Assembly (NCBI GenBank): GCA_013115125.1
Contig: JABANN010000135.1
Span: 1 to 63,658, forward strand
Length of the DNA stretch: 63,658 bases
From: Perkinsus olseni
Lineage: Eukaryota
Direction of reading: 5' to 3'
Below, in pieces: positions 28,674 through 63,658 of this stretch. Both the position numbers and the translations under genes were made by a program. The stretch's first letter is position 1. Each line of letters begins with the position of its first letter. The notes beneath the pieces were generated by a model. That model ran no database searches. It was not told the DNA's origin and worked only from the letters and a program-made list of their open reading frames with translations.

Positions 28674-31609
28674 ATGACTCTATCATGCCATCCTCAAAAC
28701 CAAGCCTTCATGGTACGCTTCCAGGACATGCGAGACACTGCAAGGAGTAGAGGGCAAACGAATCTTGTTCGATCTTATGGGAGGATAATCAGAGCCTTAA
28801 CGAAGTAGGCCGATAGCGTCGCCGAGCCCTCCTCGGTCAGTACGCAACAAACCCTGGGGAACCCCTTTTGTAGATGAGTTGGAAACTCCACTCTCGGAAT
28901 ATATCTTCGACGTGGATTGTCGCTCCTGGGCCGTTGATGCGGACCTCGAAGTTCGCCTCCTGTCGGCCGTGCTCGGCTGACGAGGTGATACATCAGATAC
29001 CCGATGCCCATCACCAGCGGGTGGCAGGCTGAGCAGCTCGACGGTGTCGGCAGTACCTTCGCGCAGGTCGAACCTGTCCGTCCTTAACCGACGTCTAGTG
29101 TAGCTGTTGCAGGTGTTCGTACAACTGCTGAACGAGAAAGAAGCGACCGACTCTCCGAGAAGGTCCTCTCTAACGTGGCGGGATACGTTAAAGTGAGTTA
29201 CGATTTGTGAGTAGCTGATGCAAAGCTCGCCGTCAGCGTTGCGCACGTATTGGTCACGATTCGCCCTCTCAGGAACCGCGCGGAGAAGTTTCAGCGCAGC
29301 GCACCAACTGCTGCATTTGCAGTTCCTGAAGACGGTGAAGCGGCAACAACAGCGCCGAAACAGCGCCAGAGGGAGTATCGTCCTGCGACTGGTGAGCGGG
29401 ATGGCATGGAATCTATGGCTCTTCAAGATAGCGCTACCAATGTTTGTTTCCGTGATGAGGCTATTGGTCGTTGCTTGTGGCATCAGAACTGTGGTGTATC
29501 GATTGACACTGTGAGGTAGGAGGCAAGGTTTCAACAAATATGGGTAGATGAACAGGGCTGAGCCGGGAATCGAACCCGGGACCTCGCGCACCCGAAGCGC
29601 GAATCATACCACTAGACCACACAGCCGCTCGGTTTGAGTATTGTCGGCATTGCTTCACAGGGAGTATTCAGTGGTGCATTCTACTCTCCCTGCAGCTGAG
29701 TCAAAATGGCCTCACCGCAGAGTCACTGCGAAGCCTCAATCGGAAGCAGCTGAGTGTAAGTTCGGTGTTATGATGAAGAAACGCGCCTCTCAGTGAAGCA
29801 CTCTCCTCCATTGATGCTTGCCGTCTGCCCTGGGAGAAGCTCTCGATGGCCATTCGCTCACTCGGTGCTCCCTGCCATCAGACCTGTTGTTCGTCGATTC
29901 AAGACGTTGTCCGTTCCTTCTCATCGGTGGACCGAGAAGTGAGCGCCTCTCCAGCGTCACTGACGGTCAGCACCGCCTCATTGAGATCTCTAGAGAAGCG
30001 GGGCTTACTCTCCGTTGTGGTAATCTTTCAGTGCTTGGCGACCTGGACCGAATTTTTCTTGTCAGGAGGCTCCTAAGGAGAAGGAGTATTGCTTGACACA
30101 GGCTGGAGAGGTCCTCGGCCAACGCATATTGGCCTCTGTCGAGTTCCCGTTAGCGGCCCTGAGCTCCATTAAGTGCAGCACAACGGGGAGTGAATCCACT
30201 CAGACCAGAAAACGTCGAAGGCTTTCATATACGGGAGCTCCCGTGCCGGAGAACGAGCTCGCCCAGTATCGGTATGCTGGGAGCCAGCCCCTTGCTATCC
30301 TGGTGGAGCCTCAGCCCAGCCCAGCCATCCCAGGGCCTTGGGAGGCGGTATTGCTCGTTGACGTCCGTGAGAGTGCCTTGATGAAGGAGCTTTCTGCGCT
30401 CGGAATCCGCGCTGAGGCCCGGAGCCTCCCCATCACTGACTTCCTGTGGGTGAGGAGTGCTCGGACTTAACTGAATTCGCATCGTCACCGAGAGCCCCTT
30501 CAGCTTATGCGGCGATCCATTGACGGCAAGGAGCTCGTTCTCGGCGTAGGAGGTGAACGCAAAACGTGGCAAGATCTGAGTGCTTCGATAATTGATGGCC
30601 GATATGATGAACAGAAATACCGTTTGGCATCCAAGTAGCAATTTCACTGCCGAGTCGGTCCTTCACCAGATTTACCCGTTAGTAACGGGCCGTTACAACC
30701 GACCCGGCTACCGAGCTGGGCCTCCTCTATGCGATGAGACTCTGTCATTTCATGGTTCAGCATCCCTTGCTATGCGTACCTCCTCCCTTTATCTACTCCA
30801 CACTTCAGAGCCATCGCCTTACGGCGCATTTTCTACCTCCTCGAAGGAGACGTCGAGCGAAGCCATGGCCACGCAAGGACCCTCCCGAGTGCGACACTCC
30901 GCACCGCTCTCTGCCACACTCGAATCATTGGAGGCTTTGGCGTAAGGAATCCCCGAGTCCTGGGCAGTGGCGCGGCGAGCAGTTGGTGACAGGTTGTCAA
31001 CACTCCTTCAGTCCGGCACTCAGCAAAACTACTGGCTGCAATGCACAATGTCATTGCCAGACAGAAGCCGGTGGATGAGGGTAGGACAGTGTCACGAACG
31101 CTCCTTATAAACTTCTGGGACAGTCTTGATAGTCATCGCTCAGATAAGTCTACCACTTACGATGCGTTTGCATCATCATGCGCGAAGACCGTCGGCGCCA
31201 CAGTTCGAGATCTAACAGGGGCCATGTTGAGACAAGTAAGTCCATGCGTATAACGCATACCACAACTTCTCGTCTTCCTAAGATATTCGTGATGATATTT
31301 GAACATCATCGGGTCGCCTGATTCAGGTGCCTGGTTGCGGTGCCGAGGCCACCAAAGCGCTGCTTGAAATCACAGAGAAGCGCATGGGTAATGTACCCGC
31401 TCGCGTTGAACAATATTGCTTCGACCCTCTACATTGATGGAGAGCATGCCTTTCCAGATAACGTCACCATGAAGAGCATCAGCAGCCTTCTCCAGAGCAT
31501 GGACGATGTTTCTTTGATGCAGACGGCGAAGGCAGCAAGTAGCAGCAATCGTTCACCCATCACCCAGAAGCTGTTAGACCGACTGCGAGCGGTCTTCATC
31601 AGCGCCTGA
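28674..31609 (+). CDS. MUS81: Crossover junction endonuclease MUS81 (multi-exon)
   Basis: N-terminal HhH (PQNQAF...IRALTK|YPMPITSGWQAEQLDGVG), ERCC4 domain (LLVDVRE, LPITDFLWV, ERKTWQDLSASIIDGRYDEQKYRL), C-terminal TVRDLTGAMLRQ|VPGCG HhH. Confidence 0.93.
29555..29626 (-). tRNA. tRNA-Pro(CGG), inside a MUS81 intron, antisense
   Basis: GGCTGTG TGGTCTAGTGGTATGATT CGCGC-TTCGGGT-GCGCG AGGTC CCGGG-TTCGATT-CCCGG CTCAGCCC; complete cloverleaf. Confidence 0.96.
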
Positions 31610-32263
31610 TACTCGGGTCTCGAATTCGTCCCTTTCGACGCATCACCATATTCATGCAGCGTTTCACCATGATCGCAGTGTTCATGTTCAGAGTATGGCG
31701 CCGCTGCCCCGAGAGGTCGCGCGGATCATGTTTCATTATACCCACCTTTGTAGAACTCATCGGGTCAGTTCGTTACAAAGTGCAACCCAGTGCATTTTCG
31801 GACAATCGGGCTCAACAATGCCACATCCAAGGTAACCGAGCCTTGCTGGATGCTCCGTACCCACACTCCAACTGCCACGAGCCTGAAAGGAATCGGTTGA
31901 AAGCTTTCAACCTGAGCTAGTGGCGCCAACCTCGGCTCATGCTATTGCCCTTTGAGAGATGCATCTCTTCACGCCCTACACGTACGTTGGCCCGACATCT
32001 TTGCCGGAAGTGAAGTGGAGAAAAACGAAAACTTGGGAAGAGTGCATGCTGAAGCAGCAAGAATAGATTTAGATGTTTTGCGGTCATTGAATCCCGGATG
32101 GCCGACAAGTCTCGTGGACAAGCCTATCGTTCCTGGCCTAGGCGGATACCTTCCAGTCTAGAGATTTTGGTTCGGTCGGCCCTCGTCGGGCGCACTGCGC
32201 AGATGGTCTGAGAATTATTCTCGCCTTGGTTGAACCTCTGCAGTGATCTGTTGAATCTATCCG

Positions 32264-34442
32264 ATGGCCTCTCATCACCTCCTTCACAGACGTTTCAACA
32301 TAGCAGGGCCACTACTTCGCAGACAGCCAATCCTCCCAATGGTCCGCCTTTGTAAGCAGTGGCTTATCGTAACAGATGTGCTAGGTACGGTGTTGGTCTC
32401 GAGAGGCTGCGTTACGGGAACTTCTGCCACAGGAGCACCTCAGCCATCTACTCCTCTGCAGTGGGCCCGACTTCGCAGTAACCTCTCATGCTTTCCGCTG
32501 CCGATCGGACAGTCAGCCGATCCGCACTATGTAGATGTCATCGAGCTTAGGTCCGTGACGTCGTCCAGGGCCGACCAGTGAAGCTTCGCAACTCGTTGTC
32601 TCATCCTGATGCGGTAGACCCTCGACAGCTCTTCCCTCGGCAGGTACGGACGATCAGTCGACTCCGCCAGTAGCTTTACCCTCGTTTAAGCTTTTCCCCT
32701 CAGCCTTCCCTCTCCTTCTTATGTTTTCAGTTCGCTTCCTCTGAGGAGCAGCGATACGTTCATTTCACAGTGTCGCGAGCCGGTATGGACCTCGAGGGAC
32801 TCTTCGCCGTGCTCGCCGGACACTCGTGAGCCACCGGCTCCCACCTCGGCTTTCCGGCTTTCCTACCTGAGGTTGTTCTCATCGTCTTCAACTCTTCAGA
32901 TCGGATTCACTTCGCTGGGGCAGTATCCGCAATTCTCACCGCTCGTCCCTATGTACCCAAGTCGTGTCCCTACCGCTAAAAGAATGGGTTTACCATGTTC
33001 TTCCACGGTGGAGCTCCACCAGGGCCGCCATAATCAGTACCGTGAAGCATCTTCCGAGTATGTGTTGTGCCCCCCACTCCGAGTTTCTCAGAGTCTTCCA
33101 CTGCTCGAGGAGGCACATTCGACATCGGACACGTGTCAGTTCAAGGATACCCAATCGATGCTTCTCTCTCTAGCGGCTTCCGCTATGAGCTCACTCTGCG
33201 GCCTGCGATATTGAACGATCCGCAGCCTCCCGAAAACCACCCGCAGGGGCCCACGCCGCTCGACCTAGACGGTATAAGCAAAGCCGTCGAAAATGTGAGT
33301 CAGGCAGGCAGCGTAGAGGCTCGGACGCCGCACTGGGAATCTAGAAAAAAAACGTCATCTGCTTTGCTTATCAGGGGGTTTTTGTACCGCCGCCGGAACC
33401 CGAGAGGCCTCCCATACGAGGATACGAGGGAGTCAAACAGGCTAGCTACCAACAGTTTCCGTTTATTGTAGGCGCGTCCGAGTGACCCCACGTCCGTCCT
33501 TTCTTGTCTCAGAACTACTTTGACCTGCATGCCCTCGACTATCCCCGTTGTCGTGACCATCTCATCGGTTTGGCGGCTCTCTCCGGCAACTTCCGTCAAG
33601 CAGTCGGCTTTCTCTTTGCTCGGGGTTATAACAACGCTGGTGACGCCGCGAGAGCCTTTGATGCGTACGGGGGATGGAGCGCCTCTGGCGGGATGCGCAT
33701 CTTCGGCGCCCTCTCTTGTCATTACCACTGCATAATAGGTTCTCCAGGGGTGATTTCATCGTTTGTGCGGCCTTATTGCCAGAAAGGTTTCACACGGCGA
33801 CTGAAATTCTCCAGAGCCTCTCCGCAGGGATGACGTGGAAGGAGGCGTTCCTCTCATGCGGAGCTTCCCGGTAGGGTTCTCGCTCGGGAACTTACCCCTT
33901 CCCTCGTGGTATGGCAGTTTCATCATCCTCTCTTTTTTAGTCGCTACATCTGTTCGGGCCTCTCATGGATCTGGAATGGCCTTGCTTCTCGCCGTATCAG
34001 TCTCTCCCGTCATGTTCTCCCGGGTGACCTCGTCGTGGCCCCTGGCTCGGACACGCCCATCATGGTCAAGGACGCTGAGGACGCTCGAAGTTTTACCTTG
34101 TCGGATGTCGTCCTTCCTCTAAATCTCATCCATGAGCCCACCTTACCGACGAGTGTCGTGGATGCTCACTCAACAATAATACCGATGCTCCGCGAAGTTA
34201 GAGACCTGGCGAAAGTCCCCATAGAGAAGTTCAGGCCCTTGGTCTCCCTCGCCCGTAGTGTGTACATCGACCCTATCGACGGTGGTGCCCTTCGTGTCTC
34301 CTTCACACTCGATCGAGGCAGCTACCCTGATGTCGCCATGCGGGAGGTTTGCGGTAACCAGATTTTACGCAAATCGGACGAGGAGCCCAAGGAGGTTGAG
34401 CTCAGTCTAGCACGCATGTTTCCGGATATCTGTTTCTTATGA
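32264..34442 (+). CDS. TruD/PUS7-family pseudouridine-synthase-like protein, catalytic motif degenerate (multi-exon)
   Basis: YVHFTV, TQVVSL, FRYELTLR, WNGLASRR, LPGDLV, DVVLPL and VSFTLDRGSYPDVAMRE occur in TruD order. The canonical GTKD is not found. Confidence 0.8.
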
Positions 34443-37350: not shown

Positions 37351-37398
37351 CTTGCGCTGCCATGCGAAAGGCCCCCGGTTCGATCCCGGCACGCGCCA
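37351..37398 (+). pseudogene. 3'-half remnant of tRNA-Gly(GCC)
   Basis: CTGCCAT anticodon loop, AGGC variable loop, GGTTCGATCCCGG T-arm and CACGCGC acceptor strand. The 5' acceptor strand and D-arm are absent, and the anticodon stem is mispaired. Confidence 0.6.
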
Positions 37399-37447: not shown

Positions 37448-40400
37448 TTAGACATGTGAACTTAGTAACTTCTTACGTAGGTCCTTGAAAGGGCCCAGTG
37501 CTTGCGGGTCCAACTGACACACAAGTGTGCAGTTGGTGCCCCTGGACAGCCTCGTTACCTCAACGATACTCAGGCTTCCCGTGTCCCCGATACACAGCTC
37601 GTGAAGCAGCATTTGGGCATCGGCCTTCGTGAAGCCGTCGAGCAGTTCCCTTCGTTCGCATTGAGAAATGAAGACGTCAGGATCCACACGGCCATGCGCA
37701 TCGGAATGAAGGGAGGTGATCCACTGAGGAGGGGTTCAGTTGGAGGATGCTGCTCCCGGAAAAGGATGCCTACAGCCTCGGCCAAGCTCCTATGCTTGGC
37801 TTGTACGCCTTGCCGGAACCGCATGATCAAATCGTAGGCCTGAGATTCACAATCGTGACTCCACCGTGGATGCTGAGCGAGGGACCTGCGGGTCAACAGA
37901 CTGGAGGGTAATGCCACCTTCAGGAAGCTCTCCAAGGTGCAGCCAGAGCTGCTTCAGTCTCCCTGAGGAACCTGGCCTGCACGACGATGCGACAGTGGCG
38001 TCTCACCTGGGAAGCCAAACGCTGTCGCCACGCCGCAAAATGAGGGGAAGCTGATCCTGGTCGTGCCGTGTTCATCGAAGCACCGTATCCACGCCTAGCA
38101 ATCCCGGTAACGCAGAGAGCCGTCCTCTTGGGCTCACTCTGAGAACACTGCCGAAGCTCCTCTCCAACGCCTGTTTGAATTGCTCCACTGGGTACAGTTC
38201 CAGGTCGTCCCCGGTCCCCTGGGGGCTCGGCAGCGTTGACAGGATCTCAACTGTCTTGGCATAGGTCTCTATTGAGGGGGCACCTGCGAGAGGGCTACGC
38301 GGTAATGAGAGGCTGCCTAAAGGTGATCTTTCCCACTCGAGGAGGTGTAGGCCGACCGTATCGCTTCCTGGAACTCCCGCCGATCCACGTCCTCCAATGT
38401 GACAAAGCCGCAGCGGTCGGGGTCGAACAGTTCAAACAGTTCCCTAATCTGCTCAAGACCACGACGCATCAGCGCCGCTCACCGATCTGCTCGCTACCTC
38501 AACGTCATTGAAGCGTGCTGGGAGCTGGGAACTGCCTCGGGAATGGAGAGCTTCGCACCAACCGCGCCACGACACTCTGCCGCCACCCTTTGGGTCAATA
38601 CATTTCCGCCACTAACAATAAATGGATAGCAAATATCTCCCAGGGTTGAGGAAAAGCCCACGCCAGCGGCCAAAGATCCGGCTGTCCGCCGAAGTGCTCC
38701 CTTGAAGTCCGCAATGAGCACAGCGGCATCGGGGTCGATATGGTCAAGTAATAGCGGCCCCGTCCCGCCTGACGCATAAGGGCATTAACAATCAGCCATC
38801 CGACGAGACCCACCTTTGAGCCTCAACCAGAGACATTTCACACCGCCTTCATACCCCATGGCACGGAAAACTCTAGCGAACTCGAGGAAGGTGATCGAAC
38901 CCCTAGACGAGGAATCCATCACCAGCGACCATGCTCGCCCCAGCGTGCCTGACGGGGTGCGCTCTTCTCCGAGCAACAGCCGGGATTGCTGCTACCATAG
39001 TCGCGACGGAGCTGCGCCAGGAACTTGATCGATCCCCTGGAGGGGGAGAATGCCTCGGGTTCCAAGGTCTCGGAGTCAAGGCGATGATGCCGGGCTAGTC
39101 GTTGGAGTAGTTTGAAGGAAACACTTCCCTGGGGAAACGGAGCTGTCAGCAGGGGGAGTTGGCAAACCCAAGTAGCTCTCACCGAGGCCTCGCCAACAGC
39201 AGCACTGCGCACCCAGCGTTCAAAGACTGACCGGTCGATGTCCTCTAATGTGACTATACCACCCCGCTCGAGATCCAAAATTGTCGCTACTTCCCTGAAT
39301 TTATCAGAATCTCAGGGAACAGAGTACAGGTGTTACTCACTTCCCATTGCTCAATTCAAGCGTCTCACGGCACCGGCTGGCGAAGTCGGCTACCGCTATC
39401 AAGCCTGTCGCTGCAGGGTCCAAGGCATCCCAACCCTCAGATAATCCACCGTACCTGAGGGTCAATGCCCGATTCACCGCTACGTGAGTGTCCCGCACGC
39501 ACTTCTCAACGAGAGCCTCGCGGAATCTCTGCAGATGGTGGCCCGCCGCCTCATCAAGCGATGAGAGAGTGATGAACCCGGTTTGCCACACATCAAGCCG
39601 TCGCCACAGCTGTTTCACACTGCGCGCGAATCCGATCTGAGAGCATCGAAACAGACAGCAGGTGAAGCATGAGCTGACGAACGTGATACCATACAAGATA
39701 ATGCGACCCACACGTGGTCCTGCAGCTCAGTGGTTAGAGCGATGGTCTTATGAGCCATAGGTCGTGGGTTCGACCCCCGCTGGGACTATGTACGAGAAGC
39801 TATCCCTTTAAACCGTACCTCTCTTGCGGTCCGACAGAACGTCATGAAGGGTATTCGCCCCTCTCCCTCAACATCGAGACTTTGTCTCCAAGCATTGGTC
39901 AAACTGCCGTGCCTGAAACGATTTCACTCAGCACTGCAGCTACCCCACTCTGGTGCATAGTGCCGGGATGTAGATTCGTACTCAGCGCTCACCTCAACAC
40001 GAGCTGCTTCTTGAAATCTTCAAGCGTGCTCGAGCTCGCGTCCGTGCAAGGGAATCTCTGGCTCGACTTACCACCGAGCAGAAGCTTTCGTGACCTGGAG
40101 AGAGATCTAGCGCCGCTGACTCAAGTATGAATGGCCGGCAGTATGAGCTGGTGTGGCGCTAGCCTGACCTTTGCGATTCCTCCACGAACTGCTCGAGTTC
40201 GACGAAAGAACCCCCTCGAAAACCTCGCAGAGACTCGTCCCAGGTTGCCTTCAAACGGTCAACCTTGGCTTGCACCACTCCCAAAGATTGCTCGTAATTG
40301 TCACGATACCTGAGTAGCCTCTTAGCCTTCTGCCAAACTTCTCCGCCTCCAAATCGCCACAGAGGTCCAGAAGCAGGCTTACCATGCTTCCCACTGTTCA

Positions 40401-41221
40401 ACTCGGTGGGATAACGCCTCCGTCTCTTGCTTGGCGGCTTCCAGCTCAGCGGCTGTGCTCTGCGTTGCTGCGAGCCTCTCAAGCTGTCAAGAGTTACATC
40501 ACATCTGAGTTCCCCTAGTGAGCAGCTCACCTCCACTCGTGCCTTCCCTTCAGCTTCCCGCACCTGCTGCAGCTCCTCTGCATGAGCCCTCGTTTCATAC
40601 TCTCGTTCCGAGCGCTCCTAGGATTGGCCCGATGAGCATAGCAAAAAAATAAACTCATTGCCGAGCGTTCTTACCTTCTCTATTTCATTGTTTGCCCTAT
40701 CTAAGTCCGCTTCGGCAGCGTCGGCTCTCTCCTGCATCACCTTCAGCTTTTCCAAAGCGGCCCTTAATGCCTTCTCTGAACACGAGGAGACAGTAAAGCG
40801 GGGTCGCAAACCGTGACAATCGGGTTAGCTACCCACCAGCCTCTGCGATGGCCGTCTCGGCCAACTGTGCCCCAGCGATAGATGATGCCAGTTCGTCCTC
40901 GCCTGTCGAAGATCCCGACTCGGTACAGGACTCGCTGCTCCCAGAATCTTCATAGACACCTAACGGGAGAGAACGAGACAAGAAGGTCGTCGATATCAGA
41001 AAATATCATCCTTGCGATGGTTGAGCGAAACGAGACATACTCCTACAGCATAGCTCACCATCGCTATCACTGTCTCCCTCGCCTCCATCATCACGGGCGC
41101 TTCGATCTGTTTGAGAGGAGAGATTCTCATCCGAGGGCTCTGAGCTGTCATAAGATTCTCCTTCGCTCTGGTTGTGAGGCAGTTCTTCTTCAGGTTTTGA
41201 AAGATTTTCAGCACCAGGCAT
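37448..41221 (-). CDS. Coiled-coil plus multi-EF-hand-like protein (multi-exon)
   Basis: Repeated units AWRQSLDVEGEGRIPFMTFC, LWRRLDVWQTGFITLSSLD, GWDALDPAATGLIAVADF, AWSLVMDSSSRGSITFLEF, IGDTGSLSIVE. Confidence 0.8.
39716..39788 (+). tRNA. tRNA-Ile(TAT), intron-less variant copy, inside an intron of the EF-hand gene, antisense
   Basis: GGTCCTGCAGCTCAGTGGTTAGAGCG ATGGT-CTTATGA-GCCAT AGGTCGTGGGTTCGACCCCCGCTGGGACTA. Confidence 0.92.
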
Positions 41222-50933: not shown

Positions 50934-51540
50934 ATGTCGAAAGAGATATGGCTTCCCAAGGCCGAGCTGGAGAAGAATCCTGAGTACATCGAGTGTCGTG
51001 AGTACGTCCATCAAGCTCTTCCATTGCCCTTCACTTTCTTCGTCGCTACAGGTATATGGCTAAGCATCGTATCCCTGAGGTCCTCAACGATCTCCTGGCC
51101 TCAGTAGCTTTCCGCAAGCCTGAGGGAGGCAGGGAAGGCGTGATGTCCTTCATGGCACAACAGCTCGACCGTCGAAGCAAAGAGGGTGCTGAAGCTGGTG
51201 GCCTGTTTGACATGAAGGAGATCGAGTCGGTCTTCCACATGGCTGATTTACTCAAGCAGGGCACCATCACTCGGGAACAGGTGCTCGATATTCGTATCTC
51301 GCCACTAGCGATGACGAACACGAGTCGCATTCAAGGGTCGCTCTTCGGACTGCACCCGCTCCCTCTCAGTGTCGGTCTGCGTTGAAGGCTCTCGCCTGCT
51401 CGGCCCGGCAAGAGGAGCTCATTGATGGTACGCTCACACCAGGGGATGAGTCAGAGGGACTGGAGATACCACTGAAGGTTGATTTACCCACATTTCTAGA
51501 TTTGGCAAGGAATGCCCTCAGTCTACGGGTAAGACAATAA
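50934..51540 (+). CDS. EFCAB10-like protein (RIIa/Dpy-30-like helix plus EF-hand)
   Basis: YMAKHRIPEVLNDLLASVAFRKPE...LFDMKEIESVFHMADLLKQGTITREQ. Confidence 0.75.
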
Positions 51541-51749
51541 CCTTTTTCTTGTGGCTGCGGTTCAGGGCTCGTACGGCCCGTGCTGAGCTCAGGCAGAAGA
51601 GATCGCTGTGTCCGGTTAAGTGCTACTGTAATATGGTGCTGCCTGCCGATCTCACATGATAGTGGTGATGATGTCGTGCCGTGATCCTGTGATCCCTAGG
51701 GAGATTGATCTGTGTTACATGAGGACCACTGGTCCCTTCTCCGCCATGG

Positions 51750-53450
51750 CACCGATGCAATGGCGAGCAGATCGCTCTGAAATTGTGAATGGCATTATCC
51801 GTGCAGACGGGTATGCAACTGCAATGGCGTCAACTTCTGTGTCCTTGACAGTTTGACTGAAGCAATGGACTCCCCCTCGCAGCCCCCCGAATCACCCCAG
51901 TTCGTCCAGACATTGGACCCAGCCGCAGGGAGGTAGCGTCCGATTCTGTCCTTCTAGGATCAATAGCAAAGCTGCTGTTTAGGTCCCCGGGCCATCGCTC
52001 GCTGAACTCTTCAGTAAAAAGGCACAGTGCCGAAGCAACAGACGATGAATCGAAGACACACGAGGTGAGCAACTGACAGTTTGGGGTGGCATGGGAGCTC
52101 GAGACCTGTACAGGGTGTATGCTCGGAGCTTCCTCCTGACGATAGACTTTTGTGCCATCGTGGCCATGGCTGAAATAGTTGTCATAAAGTTGATTGTTAG
52201 GAACTTGAGCGCGGCTCGAAGTATGTTAGGGTGGAGGAAGCTATGGCGTCGCTCAGTACACTGACGAGGAGTAAACAATTTTACGGGAGAGGAGCGGAGC
52301 GGAGTGGCCCATCTTTCAGGAGATTTCATCGAGTTACGCAACCTTCCCTCACCACCAGAGGGTGTATTGTCAGTGGCTCGTGGCCTTTGCCTGGCACTCG
52401 GAGTGAAGCCGAAAAGGAGAAGCACCACGGATGGCATCGTAGGGAGCTCTGAAGGTGCGTCTAGCGTCCCCGTACCTTCCATATTCTGGTGAATATGTTC
52501 GGTGGCACCCACAGCTGCTCTACGATCAAAGTCATTGCTCGCTCCTTCGTACTCGTGATGCCTGCCTCGTCATGGCCGCGCCTCAGCACCCCAAGACTAC
52601 TGGAAGGCGGCACGGGAGCACATATTCCCTTCGAGCAGTGCCATAAGCCTTCTCCAGAGATTGGTATTCTTCGATAAGGATAGAGTGCCAGAGAGAACTA
52701 TACGTTCCTTGGCAGCATTGGTGGATACGAAAGGTTTCCGGACCGAGGTCAGTAGCCCCTCGTTCGTAAGGCAGTACACTGATCTATCTGATTCGTTCGC
52801 AGATGATGTCCAGCGGTTTTGTCGCGAGTAAGGCCCTGGCTCGCTGGCTCAGCCACTTAGTCGGTTATCGCCTCTCTAAGGAGGGTCAGCAGTCGCAGGA
52901 GAACAAGGTGAGAGGCGTGGAGGGAGAGGCTCCGATCATCGGAGTCGGATCTGCTGATGGTCAATGACGACGTCCCTTAGGTGCCATCGAGCCCTTCGGC
53001 GTCATCACGTGGACGGAGGAAGAGCAAACCCGGCACCGAGAAGCTTCAGCGTGAGAATGGAAGCACGGTGGAAGGGATCAAGGCCGCGCTACTAACTTCT
53101 CTTTCAGCCCCTTCTGTCCGGATAACTAGTACAGTGCTGGGGCCAGCAGGGGAACGGAGAACCCCTTCACGTGGTAGCAGCCTTGGTGGCGCTCCTGGGT
53201 CGACTTCGAAGGCATCCAACAATACTCCTAACAGTGAGTCGCGTTTCCATCTCTATGGCATTCACACCCACTGAATTGTCTATCCGGCAGCTCTTCCTTT
53301 TTCCAGAACCCACATCGCGCTCGAGGCAGCCGTCTCCACCGACCAGTAGCCGCAGGCCCGTGGCATCTAGTAGAGCAAGCGATAAGAAGGAGCAAACATA
53401 TGAGAGGACGCCAGGGTGGGGCTGAACGCGAGGAGATATCACATGGTCAT
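51750..53450 (+). CDS. Small protein containing a dynein stalk/microtubule-binding-domain-like module (limits approximate)
   Basis: EEAMASLSTLTR|DFIELRNLPSPPEGVLSVARGLCLALGVKPK...DYWKAARE...VPERTIRSL follows the dynein MTBD pattern. No AAA modules nearby. Confidence 0.6.
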
Positions 53451-53639
53451 ATGGTGCTTCAGATCATTCCTTCTCACGGGGGTGATGCCATTCTCTGCCC
53501 GTATGCAAAAACAATTGAGGGCTTCATCGAACCCAGCTACCATAACTAAACCCGGTACTACTATCAATCTATTTCCCATGGTTTCCCCTATCCTCTCATA
53601 CTCTCGCCGCATTGCGAACCTTGCCAGATTCGACAGGAG

Positions 53640-55100
53640 CTTCAGTCGCTGGCCAGGAAGTGGACAGAGTCGCCGAGAAGAGTGAGTTGGTATCGCTTTG
53701 GGCCAGCTTGGTTTGGTGGCTTCTCGATCGATCTGGCGTTGGGCTGTGTATCAGTAGTTGCCCTGTGCTATAACTAATCACTCTTAGGCACCGGCTCAAG
53801 AGCCTCGAACACGCGCTCTATTCCTTCTTTGAGGAGTACCGAGACTGCATCGAGAAAAGAGACTCCGGGTAGGTCCGTAGAGAGTGAGACCGGAGCGTTG
53901 TAACGGTGCGCTCGGGCTAACCTAGCGAAATCTGCGCCCGGGGCTGCCATGTCCATCTGGGCCATTTCGCGCTCGTCGAATGAGAGTGGTAGGTCAGCTC
54001 ATAGCGGACGCATTGAAGCCGTGGCCTCCTCATAGGTGATGAGGTCATCAACTGCGTGTCTTAGGGTCTTCCGTGGAGCTGTCGGCCAGGGGCCAGGCTC
54101 GTGATAAAGAGGAGGATAGCTGGCGGAAGACTTTGGACGAAGCCAGTAAGCTTCATACTGCCTGAACGATTTCACTACTCCATAGTGCTGATATCGCCTA
54201 TGTGTAACGCCGAAGGAGCACGCTATGTATTTCGGACCTGTGGATCGGGCATCGGCGTGAATGAGTAGTTCGCCAATGGGTTTTTGCAGGGCGGGAGATT
54301 CGAGAGTTGAAGGCACTAGAGAGCCGCATATTGTGGAACATGCGGAGAGAGGAGAGGGTGAGGATTTTATCGTTCTGTTGCCTTTCTTATGGCCGCTCCT
54401 GTTGTTGGTACCCTCATGATCATCCTCAGCTGACCAAAAAGAAGATTGAAAGTGAAGCCCAGAAGGACATCACCGAGTGGAGGCGAAAACATGAGGCGAG
54501 TCTGCGTGAGGGCATCGAAGAATACAGGAAGTCAGTTCAACAGCGTGAGCTAAAAGTAGACGGCGGCGCGTTGGAGAAGCTGCGAAGCGACAGCTCTCAG
54601 GAAAACCTCGAGTCTGTCCAGTTCAAGCGAGAAAGGAAGCTTCGGGCCAAGCAGGCAGAGTTGCAGCAGGTAGCCGAGAATTATGATGCTCAACGCGAGA
54701 AGTCTATCCAGTGGGAAAGCCTCGAGAAGGAGCGCGTACTGGGTGCCCGCTCATCTGTAGCTCCCTCACTGACATCAATTTAGCTAATGGCTGAGGTAGC
54801 CTTCAAGACTGACCAGCGACAAGATCGCGCGGAGACTCGGCAGCTCGAGAAAGTGAAAAAGATGGAGGCAGCCATGGAAGAGCGGAGCGAAAGGTGATCA
54901 GTGAGACCCTAGCTAACTGAGAATATGGACCGCGGAATGCATCGTGGAATATATGCAGTATTCCTGTTACTGGTCTTGCAAGACTTATTGGATAGTCATG
55001 TGATTCAGGTCGTGGGACAGAGCGACAGCGATGGAGTTTGAGAAGAGACAGCTACTAGCGGAGAAGAATCGTCGTTTGAAGGTCTTGCTGGGGTTGGGGT
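53640..55100 (+). CDS. Hypothetical charged coiled-coil protein (multi-exon, limits approximate)
   Basis: REIRELKALESRILWNMRREER, KKKIESEAQKDITEWRRK, RKLRAKQAELQQVAE, with short introns. Confidence 0.6.
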
Positions 55101-55720
55101 TGTAGTGCATTCAAGTCGCGGCGGCCTGCTGGATCTCTTCCTGCGAGAGTAGTGCGTTCATGGCATCATAGCGAAGTTCCAGCATGGAACATGTGTATAA
55201 AGGTGTTTTCCGATGCCGGGACTCGAGCCCGGGTCGTCTGGGTGAAAGCCAGATATCCTAACCAGCTAGACTACATCGGAGTTGTTAGGAGTATAGAGGC
55301 CGTACTCGGCCTGCTTGTTCAGGAGCTCCAACTGACGGCGTCTCTGTGTGGAACAGTAACTAGCTGAACCATCGTGGGAAGCAGGGAATCGAGACTCTAC
55401 CATAATTCCCGAAGGGAATCATGTGATTCTATTACCATTACCGTCCACTGCCGCATGGCTCGTGTTGAGGACTTCAGTGATCACAGAAGCAGCTGACATT
55501 GTTGCGTTATGACTGAGTCTTTGCGAGTACTCGGACTCTGGAGATACAGTTCCTCGCGACGTGGCCGACGTCACGTAGAGCTTAATATTTGCTCGTTGTA
55601 CGACCTTAACCGGGGGGGGGGTCGGCATTGTCGATGATTGTGGTGCATGACGCCGTCTTGAGGATCCTTCGCTTTCCGGCAGACTTCCGAGCCTCCGATA
55701 GTCCACCCCCCTACCTTGCT

Positions 55721-57778
55721 ATGTCGTCACCGAGCTCACCCGCTGGCGGCAGCCCCGTGAAGCAGCGGAGGAGGTTGCGAAAGTTTGGGGAGTCGGGCGA
55801 TTCCCCTGCCGCTAGCGTAGAGGTGTCCGTGAAGAAAGAGCGTCCAGGTGAAGACCAGAGATCCCGACATCGACCAGTGAGGCCTACTCTATGCCATGGA
55901 ACTTTCGAAGCAAAGCTTTGATTGTTCAGGTTAAGGTGCGACCAATACTTCCTGTGGAGAGACTGGCCTCTTTCAAAAAAGAAGCCGCGCGTTCTGTATT
56001 TGGTGCAAATGAGTAATCAGTTCGTTGAGCTGCGGAATCGCCTTCGCGGCAGTTTACGTAGCCTACGTTAATCTCGTCATGGGTTGTTAGTCATTGGGAA
56101 CGGCAGCTCGGCTGCGTTCTTGGCTAGAACGACATGCCTTACGGGCTCATTATTGACAGGTCGCCATTTCGCCCTAAGTCCTCGTCATTATCTGCAGCCA
56201 AGTTCGTACCAAAGAGGCCTGATGCGCGAACGGTCGGTAGCGGGGAACCCACCTTGGCGAAGGCTATAGGGAAGATAGCCCGAGAGATGAATGCCTCGAG
56301 TGAGGAGGAGCCGATGCCGAGCAGCGTCAAAGTGATACTAATGAACGCGATGAAGGAGTCGGCAAGCAAGAAGAGAAGAGAGAAGATGAAGGGGAGTTCA
56401 CGTGAGAAGCATGGTTCTTCAAATCCGGAATTCTCAGTTCCGGAATTGAAACGAGAACTCTTCCATTCTATGCCTGGTATCTCAGGGGCTGCTGTAATAT
56501 CAACCGCAGCTCATTCTGGGTCCAGCTCGCGTCCGATCCATCAGCTCCTTGGTGGAGGGTTGAAAGCAGCAGATGAGATCGTAAGTTGCAGGATAGTCTT
56601 GAGTAGTCAAGATCCCTATTGCTCAGTCCAAAACAGAGCATCGCAAGGAAGGCCAACCTCTCACAGAAAGACCGCTCGATGACGTTGCTTTCGGCGCTAT
56701 CGAGGACGGCATACAGGAGTGGGTTCTCAGCTGCCGATTCTTGTGCTTGAGGGCGGGAGCAACGCTGTGCCCCATCATCGCTACGGATAAGCGATACCAT
56801 TGTTTCTTAGGTACCCTCCTCTGTCGGTACCCTACTATTCGACTCGACGTATCCATCACGATATCTTGCGAGCCACTGGTTACACAGAAACTTCACTCCT
56901 CGATACTCTCAAGATGGAAGGGAAGAGGCCCGTGCTAGTGGAAATGGCCGGGGCTACTGTTGAACAAGAGTAAAAATGCTCTTAGTGACGTCAAGCATTG
57001 CAAGCGCTGTTGCTGCTGGATTCAGGTCCAGCGGAGTTTCTCAGCTCTTCGTAGAGGACAACGCAGCCGACAGTGAGAAAGAGAGCTCTCTGAGACAAGA
57101 TCAGTTCTTCCTGGTGAGAACGTCCCTTGTTTAGCCTTGTCGGGAACCCCATAGTTAGGTGCAACTGCCAAACACATTCCCTCGAGTCTTAGCAGACAAA
57201 GAGGACGACGAGGGCAAACAGACTGCAAAAGGTATGTTCCTCAAGCGAAGTATCTCAACCTTGAGTATACGTAAAATTACTGGAACCGAGAATCGAACTC
57301 GGGACCTACTGCGTGTTAGGCAGTCGTCATAACCAACTAGACCATTCCAGCTGTGTTAGCAGCTCTTATGAGAGCGAGTAGTGAATCCTTTGCGTGGATT
57401 ACATTGTTATCGGCATTCGTACGAGTGGTTTCTCAGCTACGCAACCACTAGCACCAGAGCAGGATGTAGCAAGCTTTTACGACGTACCCGACGGGAAGCT
57501 CGGGACTCTGCGCGTCCACAAGAGCGGGCGGGTCACCCTCGTTATCGGGGATATTGAGTAAGCGCGAAACTTACTACTCTGAGCAACGGAATGGAGGGTA
57601 GATACTCATGCGCGTTGGGGCAGAAGCCGAAATTTGCACAGGAAGTTGCGTGCGTATTGCCCACACAAGGCGAAGTTGTGTTCCTGGGAGAGATAGAGAA
57701 CAAATTGGTGAGTGGATGAAGCCTGGCGTGGCGGCTCGTGAAAGCTTCTTCTCCCAGATCGTGTCGCCCAAGATCTGA
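55721..57778 (+). CDS. RPC4: RNA polymerase III subunit RPC4 (C53/POLR3D) (multi-exon)
   Basis: Disordered N-terminus with KFVPK, then VQLPNTFP...DVPDGKLGTLRVHKSGRVTLVIGDI...GQKPKFAQEVACV...VFLGEIENKL|IVSPKI*, the Rpc4 C-terminal domain pattern. Confidence 0.9.
57278..57351 (-). tRNA. tRNA-Val(AAC), inside an RPC4 intron, antisense
   Basis: GCTGGAA TGGTCTAGTTGGTTATGACG ACTGC-CTAACAC-GCAGT AGGTC CCGAG-TTCGATT-CTCGG TTCCAGTA, followed by ATTTT. Confidence 0.96.
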
Positions 57779-57921
57779 GCCTGCCGCTGAGGGCAGCAGT
57801 ACATTATAGAATCGTACAGTATCAGCACGGGGCGGTTTTACGCTCATGTAGAGTAAGTCAACCCCCAGCTGGCAGCCATGAACATGTCCTGTTTATTTTC
57901 AGGTAGTGCATAGGCGGCGTT

Positions 57922-60900
57922 ATGTTATCCATCTTCCTGATGGCCCATCCCATCGTCAAACCCGTGCACTCCGAACCACACTTAGTTGAAGGACTATCTA
58001 TTTAACGCAATTTGATCGATGATGATGCTATTGAGTTAGAAGTCATCCCATTAGCGTTGGTTCTAGGACCCCCTCGCCATGCCCTTCTAAGAGTGGCATT
58101 GGAGCTGTTAGGTGTACTCGGCGCTGTTGCAAGCATCTTCAAGTTCTCTGTAGGTTTTTTGATGAGGTCATTCTTGTAGAATTCTATGCCTCAACCTCTC
58201 CACTACGTTTGTCGAGCTGCCATCGTCCAATACATCCTCGCTGATGGCTGGGTGCTTCCTGACGTGCTGGATTGTTCTAACATCGCGTTTCCGGGCTCTG
58301 CAGGCCGGATGATGTGGGCCGAGTGGGTTGCGGGGCTCTACCGGTCGGACTGGTCGGGTTCACTGAAGGCGCTTCACAGTTACCTGCAAAGAGTGAAGCA
58401 TGTTGATGAGCATCCCGAAGACTTGGCAGCGTTGGACGAAGCACGGCTACTCAGCCTTGCTGCAATAAATGAAGTTCTTGGTGGGCTCGGACGTCGTAGT
58501 CATGAGTTGTAGTCTCAGAATGGGCTCAGAAAACCCTGAGTTCCGTGAGGATGGTCCCTTATACCACAAGTCTCGCATTCTCAAGTTCCCTGGTACTGGT
58601 AAGGGGACGTGGCATCAGAATTCATCAGGCAGTTGTACATCGGGCTTGTTGTATGCTACCTACAACGCCATTAGATGGGTAAGTACCGTGCCAGAGATGC
58701 TGAAGAGGGATGTAGAGAGTGCGGCGAACCGAATATTAATTCGCCTTAGCCGAACGTTGCGGTTAGACTTCAAGCGGGTGAAAACGATCTCGATTCATTC
58801 GATAGGCTATGATCCTCTTCCCAGTGCTCCGCGATAAGGCAATAAGGAGGGTCTGATGCTGCGAAATCTACCCGTATTTGTAACCTGCGTTTTGCCCAGA
58901 GTCTGTCGGACCCTAACGGAGACCCAGATGCCTTGGCAGATCTACAGAGCTTAGGGCGCAATGTAGGTCGAAGTGTTCTCAGCCGCAGCTCCGCCGTACC
59001 AGGATTCAGATACTCATGCATTACACACAGTTCCCTGGGAATGATGCAGACACCACAGAGTCCTCCATGTTCCCTTTCACTTCTGCAGATCTGGAGGTTA
59101 TACGTTCTTTGGGGTGTAGCTTCAGCGCGTGGCAGGTTGTGCTCGATCACAAACCGGGGAGAACCTATTCTGAGGGATTCGACTCTTGGAAGGCGGACTA
59201 CTCGGAACAGCGTGGGGTTGACAAACCTCTCACCGACTTCCAAAATGTAGCCCGATGAATTCAGGAAATCGCTCACACGGCTTCATCACCATTTCAGCCC
59301 GCCTTGGATATACCAGCGGGGAGTAGTGGGAGCTCGCGGAGTGCACTGCGCATCGCCGCTATTAGCGAGCATATGCAGTTTGTCTTTGAGGCAGCGACTA
59401 TGGCTGCTGAGGCCTTTCCTCATCAAGGTGCAATCCTTGATGACTGGTAGCTGCTCTGTAGTCGGTTATTGGTCTAGGTTCTGTCACAGTTGGGACGTAT
59501 TTTGCAAAGTTCCGTCATGTCGCGTCTGAAGGAGAGCTTGGACCCATGCGAGTCGAAGTGAGACGTAGGTGAGGACTGGCCATTCATGGGCGTCCCTTGT
59601 AGGGCTTCATGAATCTCAGTTATGAGGCGCTATGGGATGGGTTACAGGATGCCGGGCCGGAGGATATTGATAGGGTCATGGCAGACGCTTGGACGGATGA
59701 CTTCTGGCGGAAAGGTTGGTCTTGGAGGTTGGCTAGTGACTCCCTGTCTCGAGGGATATCGAGGCACCGCTATCAATAACCTCCCTGCTCAACTACGTCG
59801 GCCGGTGAGGCCCGCCATCGGCGTCCTGTTCTCGGAGGGGTAATTCTGGGTGGAAGAGTCATTTTCGTCTTGGTCAGCGGATGCTATCCTTTGTGTGGAT
59901 GTTGCCCTGTGGATCTGCGGTCTAATGCATCGCAACCGACCGCCTTCATTCCAAGACCGTGGCATGATCGTGTAAGCCTCCTCACTCTCGATGAGAATCG
60001 AATTAATTCCCTGTCGAGGAGGATGCGGCCCGGTCGTTCTGTGTCCCCAACCAGCGCTCCCGTCATCCAGTCAGGTACAGTAACACGGCGCTCCTGTGCC
60101 AGTTGCCACCAGCTGTCCCACTGGAGGTTGTCTGGAAAGCCCTGCATGATCTGATCAATCACCCCAGGACGTCGATAGCATCAGCAAATAAGATAACCGC
60201 AGGGCAAATCAAATATCAGTTGGGTAAACCGTGAACAATCCAGTGGAGTTGGAAAGGGCTCCTATGCTAGGTCTATCCGTCCCTGTTGTGTCGGCTACCG
60301 GGCTGTACGTCCAGGAGTCCTGGAGCCCCCGCGTGACCTGGGTATCAGCCGAGCTCCCCCGGGTCTTAGTCTGGCGGTGCCCGTTGCAGCGCTGTATTGT
60401 AAGAGCGAGCTCATGCACTTACGTGGGAGTGCCTGTGAAGCTGGTCGTCGCAGGTGTACCGGCATATGATACTGCGCTACCTCGAAGCCAACCTCGAACA
60501 GCCGGAAGAGAGTCGTGAGCCTTTCGCGATTCGGATAGATTTCTTGTGAGTGGCACTTCTGTGTCATCCCGGCTTGATCACTTTCAACCTTCATAGTGGG
60601 TGATTAGTGTACTATCGACCCAATTTCCAGAAAGTGAGGACTATCTGAACGTGGATTAGCCGATATTCTGCTACCACATCTGGTTGATAACTCATCCTTG
60701 CCAGGCTTCACGATGAAAGTCATTTGGGTGGAGAGAGTACTGAGAGGCAGATCTTCAGATCTTCGGCGAATCGAATGCAAAATATTGTTACGTTAGTAGG
60801 TGATTTTCATCGTCACAGAGCCCATGACATATGGCAGGTCGAGAGGCCTCTCTCCCTCGGCGAGATCGCGGCTAATTATCAAGCTGTAGTTCTATTCCCG

Positions 60901-61756: not shown

Positions 61757-63196
61757 ATGTCTTCCTCGAGCTCTTCTTCATCTGCTATTGGGACGGGGTC
61801 TCGGCGAAGATCGGCGTCGATCGGTAGTACGCATCAAGCCGAGAGCTTGCCGGACTTCCTATCGCGGTCGTGGCATCGGAGCTTCAATGATGTTCCGATT
61901 GAAGATAAGATACGTACTGCAGACAGGTATGTACTTGGCCCCAATTTCCCTCACGCTCACGATGCTTTCATTTTTTAGGATGATACAGAGACTGATGGGT
62001 TGGGACACTTCGGAGAATCCACTTATTGAGTTCCTCTATGACCCTAAGACAGGCAACACCACCAAAGCAGTCGTAGACGTAGAGGCCCTTCACCGGCGAC
62101 AGGCTGCTGCGGTAGGCGCGAATGAATCATGATCGACTTGCACGGCTCTGCGAAGTTCAGTTTCAAGGGATACTAGCGGTTTTGGGGGAAGTGGCCGATC
62201 CGCAGGAAGTGGAAAGACTTCTCAGGATGGACCATAGCGCGGAGCCTGTGAGGCCTCGGGATCTCCGAGAAAAACCAGAGGTGGGGAAGTCCTTATCAAC
62301 CTTTTGCTCCTGATTGCTCTCTCCTCCCAGGACTTGGTTTCCAACGGTGTACAGCCGCAAGAAGAGCACTCGGTGGCCAAGCTAGCTATCGAGGGAGCCC
62401 GACTCTCCGTCCCGTCCTCCAAAGTAAGGAAAGGGCCGTCTTGCGGATGGGATACTCCTACTGTGAATCTCGTTGCGAACCTATGCTACAGGAATCTGCA
62501 ATCTCTACTGTAGTTGCTGCTCGGAACCCAAGATCCCTCTTAATGTATCGGTTCACTCTTTGCTTGAATGCATAAGGAGGTTCAAACGACCCAGTGGCCT
62601 TTGGAATTGACATAGATCGATAGTGGACCGAATGCTAGGCTAAACACGCGAGTACACCCAACTTTCAATGTCGCCATGCTGGATAATTGAAGTACCCCGG
62701 TGGCAGCGGTCCTAGATAGGCTAGTGCGGGAAGTATTGCAGAGAGTTCTCTCCGTGAGAGGGGTAGTCAACCCCGCTCAGTAAGCGATGTGAAGTTTTCA
62801 GTATTGTATTAGGTACCTTTTCTCATTGGGTCGGACAGCGAAGAATGCCACTTCGATATTTCATCACTGATTGACTTTAGCGACCATCTAGCTCCTGCAG
62901 GAGACCCTATCGTTCATGCAGTACGCTCTAAGCGGTTTACCAGGACCCTGCCGTGTCTTGAATCACGTCATTAGGTTCACTGTGGTATCGACCGGAATTC
63001 CGAGGCTGGATGGATGTTGAGAAACTATGGTGGAGGTCATTACTCCAATTAGTCCACAGCCGTACATAAGCTACCACTATCAGGTACATTCGTGGACGGC
63101 ACGCCGGTCCCGGCGGATTCTACTGTGCCACTCCATCCAGGAAGCCAGATTCAGATCCATCACCTGACGTTTATCTTCTTTCCAATCGATGACTGA
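61757..63196 (+). CDS. FHA-domain protein (multi-exon)
   Basis: PFLIGSDSEECHFDI...SLHCGI...WMLRNYG...GTFVDGTPV...LHPGSQIQIHHLTFIF. Confidence 0.75.
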
Positions 63197-63415
63197 CCTG
63201 CAGTCACCGCGACTGACTGTATATTTTTTCGAAAGATCTGCCTTTTGTTCCAAGTGCTTGAGTGTCATATCTCTCTACCCATCGAGCTACAGGATCATCG
63301 AGGAACGTAGCCCACGAGACTATTGCTGATAGGCGCCCTGAACCTTCGGAATCACGAACCTGAAGCTGCTCCGCGAAACCGAAGTCTAGTACTAGCAAGC
63401 AACACATCATCTACG

Positions 63416-63488
63416 TAGTCCCGGCGGGGGTCGAACCCACGACCTATGGCTCATAAGACCATCGCTCTAACCACTGAGCTACAGGACC
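63416..63488 (-). tRNA. tRNA-Ile(TAT), tandem copy 1
   Basis: GGTCCTGTAGCTCAGTGGTTAGAGCGATGGTCTTATGAGCCATAGGTCGTGGGTTCGACCCCCGCCGGGACTA. Confidence 0.97.
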
Positions 63489-63581
63489 GTTGAGCTACGC
63501 CGTCCGCGAGATTTTTGCCGATATATGCCCTCAACGTTCGAATTTCCCAACCTACAACTAGCAAGCAACACATCATATACG

Positions 63582-63654
63582 TAGTCCCGGCGGGGGTCGA
63601 ACCCACGACCTATGGCTCATAAGACCATCGCTCTAACCACTGAGCTACAGGACC
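63582..63654 (-). tRNA. tRNA-Ile(TAT), tandem copy 2
   Basis: Identical to the copy at 63416..63488. Confidence 0.97.
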
Positions 63655-63658
63655 GTTG

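What the first reader, a model, noticed from the sequence alone, without database searches (positions are those of the whole stretch)
29555..63654. All tRNA loci are antisense to the surrounding protein genes, and three are nested in introns
Seen: tRNA-Pro(-) in a MUS81(+) intron; tRNA-Ile(+) in intron 39637..39818 of the EF-hand gene(-); tRNA-Val(-) in an RPC4(+) intron; tRNA-Gly remnant(+) between two minus-strand genes; two tRNA-Ile(-) behind the FHA gene(+). That is 6 of 6 copies (5 independent loci) opposite the local Pol II direction. Inference: sense copies may be purged because RNase P/Z would cut the pre-mRNA, especially if transcription reads through gene blocks. Antisense tDNAs could also act as pause or boundary elements. 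This looks like a genome-organisation rule.
Basis: partly seen in the sequence, partly recalled or inferred. Interest (0 to 1): 0.7.

Follow-up and report, generated by a model that had tools for sequence, protein, structure and literature searches.

The report
Antisense tRNA genes in Perkinsus olseni
Every tRNA gene in this stretch of the clam parasite Perkinsus olseni points against its neighbouring protein genes and three sit inside introns, but five places are too few to show a genome-wide rule.

Summary
ARAGORN and Rfam find six intact tRNA genes: Pro, Ile, Glu, Val and two more Ile. All six lie opposite the local protein-gene strand, and no sense-oriented tRNA exists anywhere in the 63.6 kb. 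The 'tRNA-Gly remnant' is only a tRNA-like 3' fragment that neither program calls.

All three nesting claims stand:
- tRNA-Val lies in a 205-nt GT..AG intron of RPC4, with the splice joint seen in 4 of 4 runs laid.
- tRNA-Pro lies in a 269-nt MUS81 intron, shown by the window's own gene model and the P. marinus orthologue.
- tRNA-Ile lies in exactly the intron 39637..39818 of an EF-hand gene, shown by GT..AG ends, frame continuity and an allelic protein model.

The organism is Perkinsus olseni.

Five loci all antisense gives p = 0.03 one-sided, or 0.125 if neighbouring tRNAs count as three clusters. Nesting is not enriched: in the one stretch I could measure, introns are about 79% of non-exonic DNA, against 3 of 5 loci nested. 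In C. elegans 56% of intronic tRNA genes are in the sense orientation, so no general purge of sense copies exists. No whole genome was available, so the decisive test was not run.

The parts
28674..31594 (+). MUS81 crossover-junction endonuclease gene, host of tRNA-Pro
   Evidence: P. marinus MUS81 (P0006) and the window's own model P0002 map here on the + strand. Pfam HHH_8 hits 28989-29084 (E=0.0049) and ERCC4 hits 30471-30635 (E=2.4e-6).
29392..29660 (+). 269-nt GT..AG intron of MUS81 that holds tRNA-Pro
   Evidence: Exact mapping of P0002 leaves a 269-nt gap between ..EYRPATG and SIQWCILL... P0006 joins the same residues. GTGAGC..CACAG read. No RNA was laid on this region.
29555..29626 (-). 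tRNA-Pro(CGG), antisense to MUS81
   Evidence: ARAGORN; Rfam RF00005 at 54.3 bits.
37353..37398 (+). tRNA-Gly(GCC)-like 3' fragment with encoded CCA, between dyskerin(-) and the EF-hand gene(-)
   Evidence: B-box-like match at 37377-37387; sequence; alignment to two tRNA-Gly(GCC) genes. Not called by ARAGORN or Rfam.
37451..40764 (-). EF-hand repeat protein gene, host of tRNA-Ile
   Evidence: The P. olseni allelic model P0008 (727 aa; precomputed Pfams PF13405, PF13499, PF00036) maps to the minus strand across this span.
39637..39818 (-). 182-nt GT..AG intron of the EF-hand gene that holds tRNA-Ile
   Evidence: GTACGG at 39818 and CTCAG ending at 39637 on the minus strand, phase-0 continuity. 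P0008 reads ..FCRTARE|IGFARSVKQLW.. across it. No joint for it is among the 15 shown of 66.
39716..39788 (+). tRNA-Ile(UAU), antisense to the EF-hand gene
   Evidence: 58.3 bits. It has C where the two other Ile copies have T at position 8, plus one acceptor-stem change.
51865..55105 (+). Protein gene of unknown function (the window's own model P0010), upstream neighbour of tRNA-Glu
   Evidence: Exact mapping of P0010 in 18 blocks; last coding base 55102.
   Evidence: 63.7 bits. It lies 102 nt after the P0010 stop and about 440 nt before the RPC4 start.
55721..57778 (+). RPC4 (RNA polymerase III subunit) gene, host of tRNA-Val
   Evidence: Eleven GT..AG joints in 4 of 4 runs. Spliced ORF of 448 codons, 411 from the second Met. 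PF05132 E=6.9e-8 at 57385-57558.
57232..57436 (+). 205-nt GT..AG intron of RPC4 that holds tRNA-Val
   Evidence: Joint 57229>57435 (cut +2) in X1, X22, X10 and X2. GTATGT..CTCAG.
57278..57351 (-). tRNA-Val(AAC), antisense to RPC4
   Evidence: 64.5 bits. It is the only one of the six with a T4 run just downstream.
62813..63196 (+). Last exons of an FHA-domain gene
   Evidence: PF00498 E=0.0016 (19.3 bits, below the 20.7 cut-off) at 63053-63193. FHA-like sequence and stop codon read.
63416..63654 (-). Two tRNA-Ile(UAU) genes in a 166-nt tandem unit, convergent with the FHA gene, at the very end of the window
   Evidence: 67.9 bits each; direct repeat D2; sequence.

Best explanation
These are ordinary, probably functional, Pol III-transcribed tRNA genes scattered through a very gene-dense, intron-rich genome (Perkinsus olseni). 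Roughly half of a gene's span there is exon and about 40-45% is short intron. Intergenic spacers are only a few hundred bases. The only places that tolerate a tRNA gene are therefore introns and short spacers, which is why three of five loci are nested. The host introns are simply enlarged: 182, 205 and 269 nt against a median of 56 nt for the 15 RNA-shown joints. The unanimous antisense orientation is a real local fact. With five loci, or three clusters, it cannot be told apart from chance plus local co-orientation of neighbouring tRNA genes. What is shown: the tRNA genes, their strands, the host genes and the three introns. What is inferred: that they are Pol III units, and that the orientation pattern here carries no rule.
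For: - All six tRNAs and their strands.
- No further tRNA-like match on either strand at E<=5.
- Hosts and introns.
- Introns are 40% of the RPC4 span (822 of 2058 nt) and 45% of the P0010 span (1471 of 3241 nt). The spacer between the two genes is 615 nt. Introns are thus about 79% of non-exonic DNA in 51865-57778, against 3 of 5 loci nested.
- Glu, Val and the Ile pair lie within 8.5 kb on one strand, inside one (+) gene block, so they may not be independent.
- In C. elegans 44% of 609 tRNA genes are intronic, as expected from the intron share, and 56% of those are in the host's orientation (PMC4999229, passages).
- P. marinus carries more than 500 copies of just five tRNA types (PMC3706591, sections 10 and 13). 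tRNA genes are therefore common enough in this genus to land in many genes.
Against: - Five of five loci, six of six with the fragment, are antisense and none is sense anywhere in 63.6 kb. Under a coin flip this is 0.031, or 0.016 with the fragment.
- The pattern switches sign with the gene blocks: (-) tRNA in the first (+) block, (+) in the (-) block, (-) again in the second (+) block. Simple regional co-orientation of tRNA genes does not predict that.
- All three intergenic elements lie 50-220 nt downstream of a convergent gene's stop codon, which looks less random than a scatter.
Confidence: 0.55

Rival explanations
1. Genome-wide antisense bias kept by selection. A tRNA in the sense strand of a Pol II transcript folds and is cut by RNase P and RNase Z. 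The cut severs the pre-mRNA inside a short intron before it is spliced, so sense insertions are lost and antisense ones persist.
For: - All three nested tRNAs are antisense.
- No strand complementary to a tRNA scores as tRNA-like at E<=5, so the host pre-mRNAs carry no recognisable tRNA.
- Recalled, not from a call: tRNA sequences embedded in Pol II transcripts are cut out efficiently in engineered tRNA-guide RNA arrays.
Against: - Three nested cases give only p = 0.125.
- In C. elegans 56% of intronic tRNA genes are sense (PMC4999229).
- Human intronic tRNA look-alikes are reported as not processed as tRNAs (PMC7722341).
- The idea does not explain antisense orientation of the intergenic Glu, the Ile pair and the Gly-like fragment. 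A cut between genes would be harmless there, especially in a lineage with spliced-leader trans-splicing (PMC9399869, passages).
Confidence: 0.25
2. The tRNA genes act as head-on roadblocks or terminators for Pol II. Intergenic copies placed just after a convergent gene's stop would end its transcription and shield the next gene. The copy inside RPC4, a Pol III subunit gene, would couple RPC4 output to Pol III occupancy, as the antisense MIR does in mammalian Polr3e.
For: - tRNA-Glu lies 102 nt after the P0010 stop and ahead of RPC4.
- The Ile pair lies 219 nt after the FHA stop.
- The Gly-like fragment lies about 55-100 nt after the EF-hand gene stop.
- RPC4 hosts an antisense tRNA and has a second tRNA upstream of its start. 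Mammalian Polr3e has an antisense Pol III unit in intron 1 and a tRNA-Leu gene upstream, and only the antisense orientation lowered reporter expression (PMC5358760, passages).
- Trypanosomatid tRNA genes mark Pol II termination sites (PMC2695483, passages).
Against: - No occupancy or elongation data exist here.
- The two strand-switch regions of this window, near 34.5-35.1 kb and 45.9 kb, carry no tRNA, unlike the trypanosomatid pattern.
- Three of roughly a dozen genes in this region host a tRNA, so RPC4 being one of them is not surprising.
- The Gly-like fragment cannot be a working Pol III unit.
Confidence: 0.12
3. The bias comes from how copies arise. tRNA copies would spread by reverse transcription or with tRNA-targeting mobile elements, and integrate preferentially in one orientation relative to transcription.
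For: - The Gly-like fragment is a 5'-truncated 3' part with an encoded CCA, as expected of a copy made from a mature tRNA.
- P. marinus has Dada DNA transposons that insert into tRNA-Ile, Leu, Gly and Tyr genes (PMC3706591).
Against: - None of the six intact genes has an encoded CCA.
- The three Ile copies share only 77 nt, the tRNA plus 3-4 bases, so no common flank marks a mobile unit.
- Dada elements insert into tRNA genes; they do not carry them.
Confidence: 0.08

Closest known systems
Intronic (nested) tRNA genes of Caenorhabditis elegans
   Same: Intact tRNA genes sit inside spliceosomal introns of protein genes, at a share close to the intron share of the genome (PMC4999229).
   Different: In C. 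elegans 56% are in the host's orientation. Here 3 of 3 nested copies are antisense, and the host introns are very short (182-269 nt).
Antisense Pol III-transcribed MIR in intron 1 of mammalian Polr3e (transcriptional interference)
   Same: An antisense Pol III-type unit lies inside an intron of a Pol III subunit gene, with another tRNA gene upstream of that gene's start (PMC5358760).
   Different: Here the unit is a true tRNA-Val gene in the eighth RNA-shown intron of RPC4, not a SINE in intron 1 of RPC5. No interference has been measured, and conservation in other Perkinsus species could not be checked.
tRNA genes as Pol II termination sites at gene-cluster boundaries in trypanosomatids
   Same: tRNA genes lie just downstream of convergently transcribed protein genes in a lineage that uses spliced-leader trans-splicing (PMC2695483; PMC9399869).
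   Different: Here the tRNAs lie inside same-strand gene blocks and in introns, not at the two strand-switch regions of the window. All 269 trypanosomatid tRNA genes have a T run downstream; only 1 of 6 here has a T4 run.
Antisense excess of nested genes and transposable elements in introns (recalled, not from a call)
   Same: Elements inside introns tend to survive better on the strand opposite the host.
   Different: The usual reasons, polyadenylation and splice signals on the sense strand, do not obviously apply to a 73-nt tRNA gene.

Membership tests
tRNA (Rfam RF00005) | Cloverleaf sequence and structure scoring above the family's gathering score | tested here: met
   6 of 6 score 54.3-67.9 bits against a cut-off of 29, and ARAGORN agrees. 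The Gly-like fragment fails even at E<=5.
Independent Pol III type-2 transcription unit | Internal B box close to GGTTCGANTCC (consensus recalled) | tested here: met
   5 of 6 match with at most 1 mismatch. tRNA-Val does not match within 1 mismatch.
Independent Pol III type-2 transcription unit | Run of four or more T shortly downstream as terminator | tested here: not met
   Only tRNA-Val has a T4 run, at +2. The other five have at most T3 within 80 nt downstream. Whether T3 is enough in Perkinsus is unknown.
Gene nested in a spliceosomal intron | GT..AG interval removed from the host mRNA | tested here: met
   Val: joint seen in 4 of 4 runs. Pro and Ile: GT..AG ends plus protein models that join the flanking exons.
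Polr3e-type transcriptional interference | Pol II accumulates at the nested Pol III unit, and host expression rises when the unit is removed | not testable with these tools
   Only the arrangement is seen.
Trypanosomatid-type tRNA terminator at strand-switch regions | tRNA gene located at a convergent strand-switch region | tested here: not met
   The convergent switch between the TruD-like gene(+), ending at 34439, and dyskerin(-), from about 35159, holds no tRNA.
Genome-wide antisense rule for tRNA genes | Significant excess of antisense copies over all tRNA loci of the genome | not testable with these tools
   No genome is held. Scans for two of the tRNA cores found 2 unrelated tRNA-array contigs in metagenomes and nothing in prokaryote genomes.

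The most novel reading that the evidence does not exclude
Perkinsus keeps its many hundreds of tRNA genes almost always head-on to Pol II transcription, in introns and just behind stop codons. Sense copies are lost because they get cut out of pre-mRNAs. The surviving antisense copies double as Pol II roadblocks, one of which, inside RPC4, feeds Pol III activity back onto a Pol III subunit gene.
Probability: 0.3. Interest if true: 0.65.

Novelty: new member of a known kind. Interest (0 to 1): 0.4.

Why it matters
If the orientation bias held genome-wide, Perkinsus would be a clear case where tRNA gene placement is shaped by conflict with Pol II transcripts. It would be a eukaryote with very short introns, trans-splicing and unusually many tRNA genes. 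It would also offer a natural system for studying Pol III/Pol II interference, including a possible feedback on RPC4. As the evidence stands, this is a well-documented local arrangement of a known kind: nested and convergent tRNA genes. The test that would decide is easy to run on public data.

Tried and rejected
- Whole-genome test: no genome is held for this window.
- Pfam on 123 long stop-to-stop ORFs identified only dyskerin, because exons are short.
- A codon-usage score trained on long ORFs did not separate the strands well and was dropped.
- RNA could be laid on only 20 kb (39000-58999). MUS81/tRNA-Pro and the FHA/tRNA-Ile end therefore have no RNA evidence. Only 15 of 66 joints were shown, so the missing joint for 39637..39818 says nothing.
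- A metagenome scan for the tRNA-Val core gave two short contigs that are dense tRNA arrays without protein genes, useless for the orientation test.
- A scan of prokaryote genome contigs for the tRNA-Ile core gave 0 matches.
- Literature: searches found no paper on the orientation or intron nesting of nuclear tRNA genes in Perkinsus. Supplements were not seen. S3 Fig of PMC4999229 holds the C. elegans orientation counts, which I cite from the text only.
- A weak snoU61 match at 57037-57117(-), E=0.16 and 25.5 bits against a cut-off of 55, was rejected as chance.
Full report
**What is in the sequence**

ARAGORN and Rfam at gathering threshold agree on six tRNA genes in the window:
- Pro(CGG) 29555-29626(-)
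- Ile(UAU) 39716-39788(+)
- Glu(UUC) 55208-55280(-)
- Val(AAC) 57278-57351(-)
- Ile(UAU) 63416-63488(-)
- Ile(UAU) 63582-63654(-)

Scores run from 54.3 to 67.9 bits against a cut-off of 29. Permissive Rfam scans at E<=5 of 27000-63658 and 1-27100 add no tRNA-like match on either strand. The list is therefore complete, and no sense-oriented copy was overlooked.

Its 'tRNA-Gly remnant(+)' is a fragment at about 37353-37398. It has a B-box-like 11-mer, a CTGCCAT loop, an intact T arm and an encoded CCA, but no D arm. No program calls it.

**Organism**

A search with a MUS81 exon returned proteins that NCBI names as Perkinsus olseni. One of them (P0002) lies on a contig of exactly 63658 bases, the length of the window.

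**Hosts and neighbours**

1. tRNA-Pro and MUS81.
- MUS81 is on the + strand: ERCC4 at 30471-30635 (E=2.4e-6) and HHH_8 at 28989-29084 (E=0.0049).
- The window's own model P0002 maps exactly, with a 269-nt gap between ..EYRPATG and SIQWCILL...
- The P. marinus orthologue P0006 joins the same residues.
- The interval 29392-29660 starts GTGAGC and ends CACAG, and tRNA-Pro(-) lies inside it.
- No RNA was laid on this region.

2. tRNA-Ile and the EF-hand gene.
- On the minus strand, GTACGG starts at 39818 and CTCAG ends at 39637. The frame runs on in phase 0.
- The allelic P. olseni model P0008 (727 aa, EF-hand Pfams) reads ..FCRTARE|IGFARSVKQLW.. across it.

3. tRNA-Val and RPC4.
- Contigs of four runs, one of them on record as RNA, show eleven GT..AG joints on the + strand between 55876 and 57903.
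- One joint, 57229>57435 (intron 57232-57436, 205 nt), holds tRNA-Val(-).
- The spliced frame is open for 448 codons.
- The exon just after that intron matches RNA_pol_Rpc4 (PF05132, E=6.9e-8, 33.3 bits against a cut-off of 26.5).

4. tRNA-Glu.
- The window's own model P0010 maps exactly to the + strand, 51865-55102.
- tRNA-Glu(-) begins 102 nt after its stop codon and about 440 nt before the RPC4 start.
- It is therefore antisense to both neighbours.

5. The tRNA-Ile pair.
- An FHA-like domain (PF00498, E=0.0016, just below Pfam's cut-off) ends with a stop codon at 63194-63196 on the + strand.
- The first tRNA-Ile(-) follows 219 nt later.
- What lies beyond the pair is unknown, because the window ends 4 bases after the second copy.

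6. The Gly-like fragment(+). It lies between dyskerin(-) and the stop of the EF-hand gene(-) at about 37451.

**Is it more than chance?**

- Five loci all antisense gives 0.5^5 = 0.031 one-sided, 0.06 two-sided. With the fragment it is 0.016.
- Glu, Val and the Ile pair sit within 8.5 kb on one strand, inside one (+) block, and may not be independent.
- Counted as three clusters against three gene blocks, the figure is 0.125.
- The pattern was also picked out after the fact.
- In its favour, the tRNA strand flips each time the gene block flips.

**Nesting is not enriched**

- In RPC4, introns take 822 of 2058 nt. In P0010 they take 1471 of 3241 nt. The spacer between the two genes is 615 nt.
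- Introns are thus about 79% of the non-exonic DNA in that stretch.
- 3 of 5 tRNA loci are intronic.
- The host introns (182, 205, 269 nt) are among the longest. The 15 RNA-shown joints have a median of 56 nt. These introns look like ordinary short introns that contain a 73-nt gene with about 30-160 nt on either side.
- All 17 introns examined have GT..AG ends.

**Comparison with what is known**

- C. elegans: 44% of 609 tRNA genes are intronic, no more than the intron share predicts, and 56% of those share the host's orientation (PMC4999229, passages). No general purge of sense copies exists.
- Human introns: tRNA look-alikes of mitochondrial origin are reported as not processed like tRNAs, and they promote splicing in either orientation (PMC7722341, passages).
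- Mammalian Polr3e: the antisense Pol III unit in intron 1 lowers host expression by blocking Pol II, and a tRNA-Leu gene lies upstream (PMC5358760, passages). RPC4 here shows the same layout, which is a lead only.
- Trypanosomatids: tRNA genes sit at convergent strand switches and mark Pol II termination (PMC2695483, passages). Here the two strand switches hold no tRNA.
- P. marinus: more than 500 copies of five tRNA types, and transposons that insert into tRNA genes (PMC3706591, sections 10 and 13). tRNA genes are abundant in this genus.
- None of the seven literature searches turned up a paper on tRNA orientation in Perkinsus.

**Verdict**

The proposed rule is untested.

I rate an ordinary arrangement with a chance or locally correlated orientation pattern at 0.55. 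A real genome-wide bias from selection against sense copies gets 0.25. A roadblock or terminator role gets 0.12. An insertion bias gets 0.08.

The decisive test is a genome-wide tRNA scan against RNA-supported gene models. It could not be run here because no genome was held and collection scans gave nothing usable.

Noticed in passing
window 37353-37398 (+): The tRNA-Gly(GCC)-like fragment is 5'-truncated and ends in an encoded CCA, as a copy made from a mature tRNA would. None of the six intact genes has an encoded CCA.
   Followed up: partly
80 nt downstream of each of the six tRNA genes: Only tRNA-Val has a run of four T just downstream. The other five have at most three T within 80 nt. Pol III termination in Perkinsus may therefore not need the usual T4 run.
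   Followed up: no
window 39716-39788 (+): The intronic tRNA-Ile differs from the two terminal copies at two positions. It has C instead of T at position 8, and one acceptor-stem change that turns a G-C pair into G-U. It scores 58.3 against 67.9 bits, so it may be decaying.
   Followed up: no
window 63386-63658: The two tRNA-Ile genes form a 166-nt tandem unit, 97% alike over 107 nt. The window ends 4 bases past the second copy, so the array may be longer and may have broken the assembly.
   Followed up: no
window 31595-32553 and 55103-55756: Public gene models fuse neighbouring genes. P0002 joins MUS81 to a TruD-like pseudouridine synthase across a 959-nt 'intron', whereas P. marinus MUS81 ends near 31561. 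P0012, from another assembly, joins the P0010 gene to RPC4 across tRNA-Glu.
   Followed up: partly
window 57308-57353, loose ends: Contigs of three runs leave the window exactly at the borders of tRNA-Val and run into other sequence. Further copies of this tRNA therefore exist with different flanks.
   Followed up: no
L001 1-2505 and L002 1-1712: Two metagenome contigs share an identical 58-nt tRNA-Val core with the window. They are dense tRNA arrays: 17 tRNA genes in 2.5 kb and 10 in 1.7 kb. They hold no evident protein genes.
   Followed up: partly
window 55208-57436: The gene for the Pol III subunit RPC4 has one tRNA gene about 440 nt upstream of its start and another, antisense, in an intron. 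This resembles the layout of mammalian Polr3e.
   Followed up: partly
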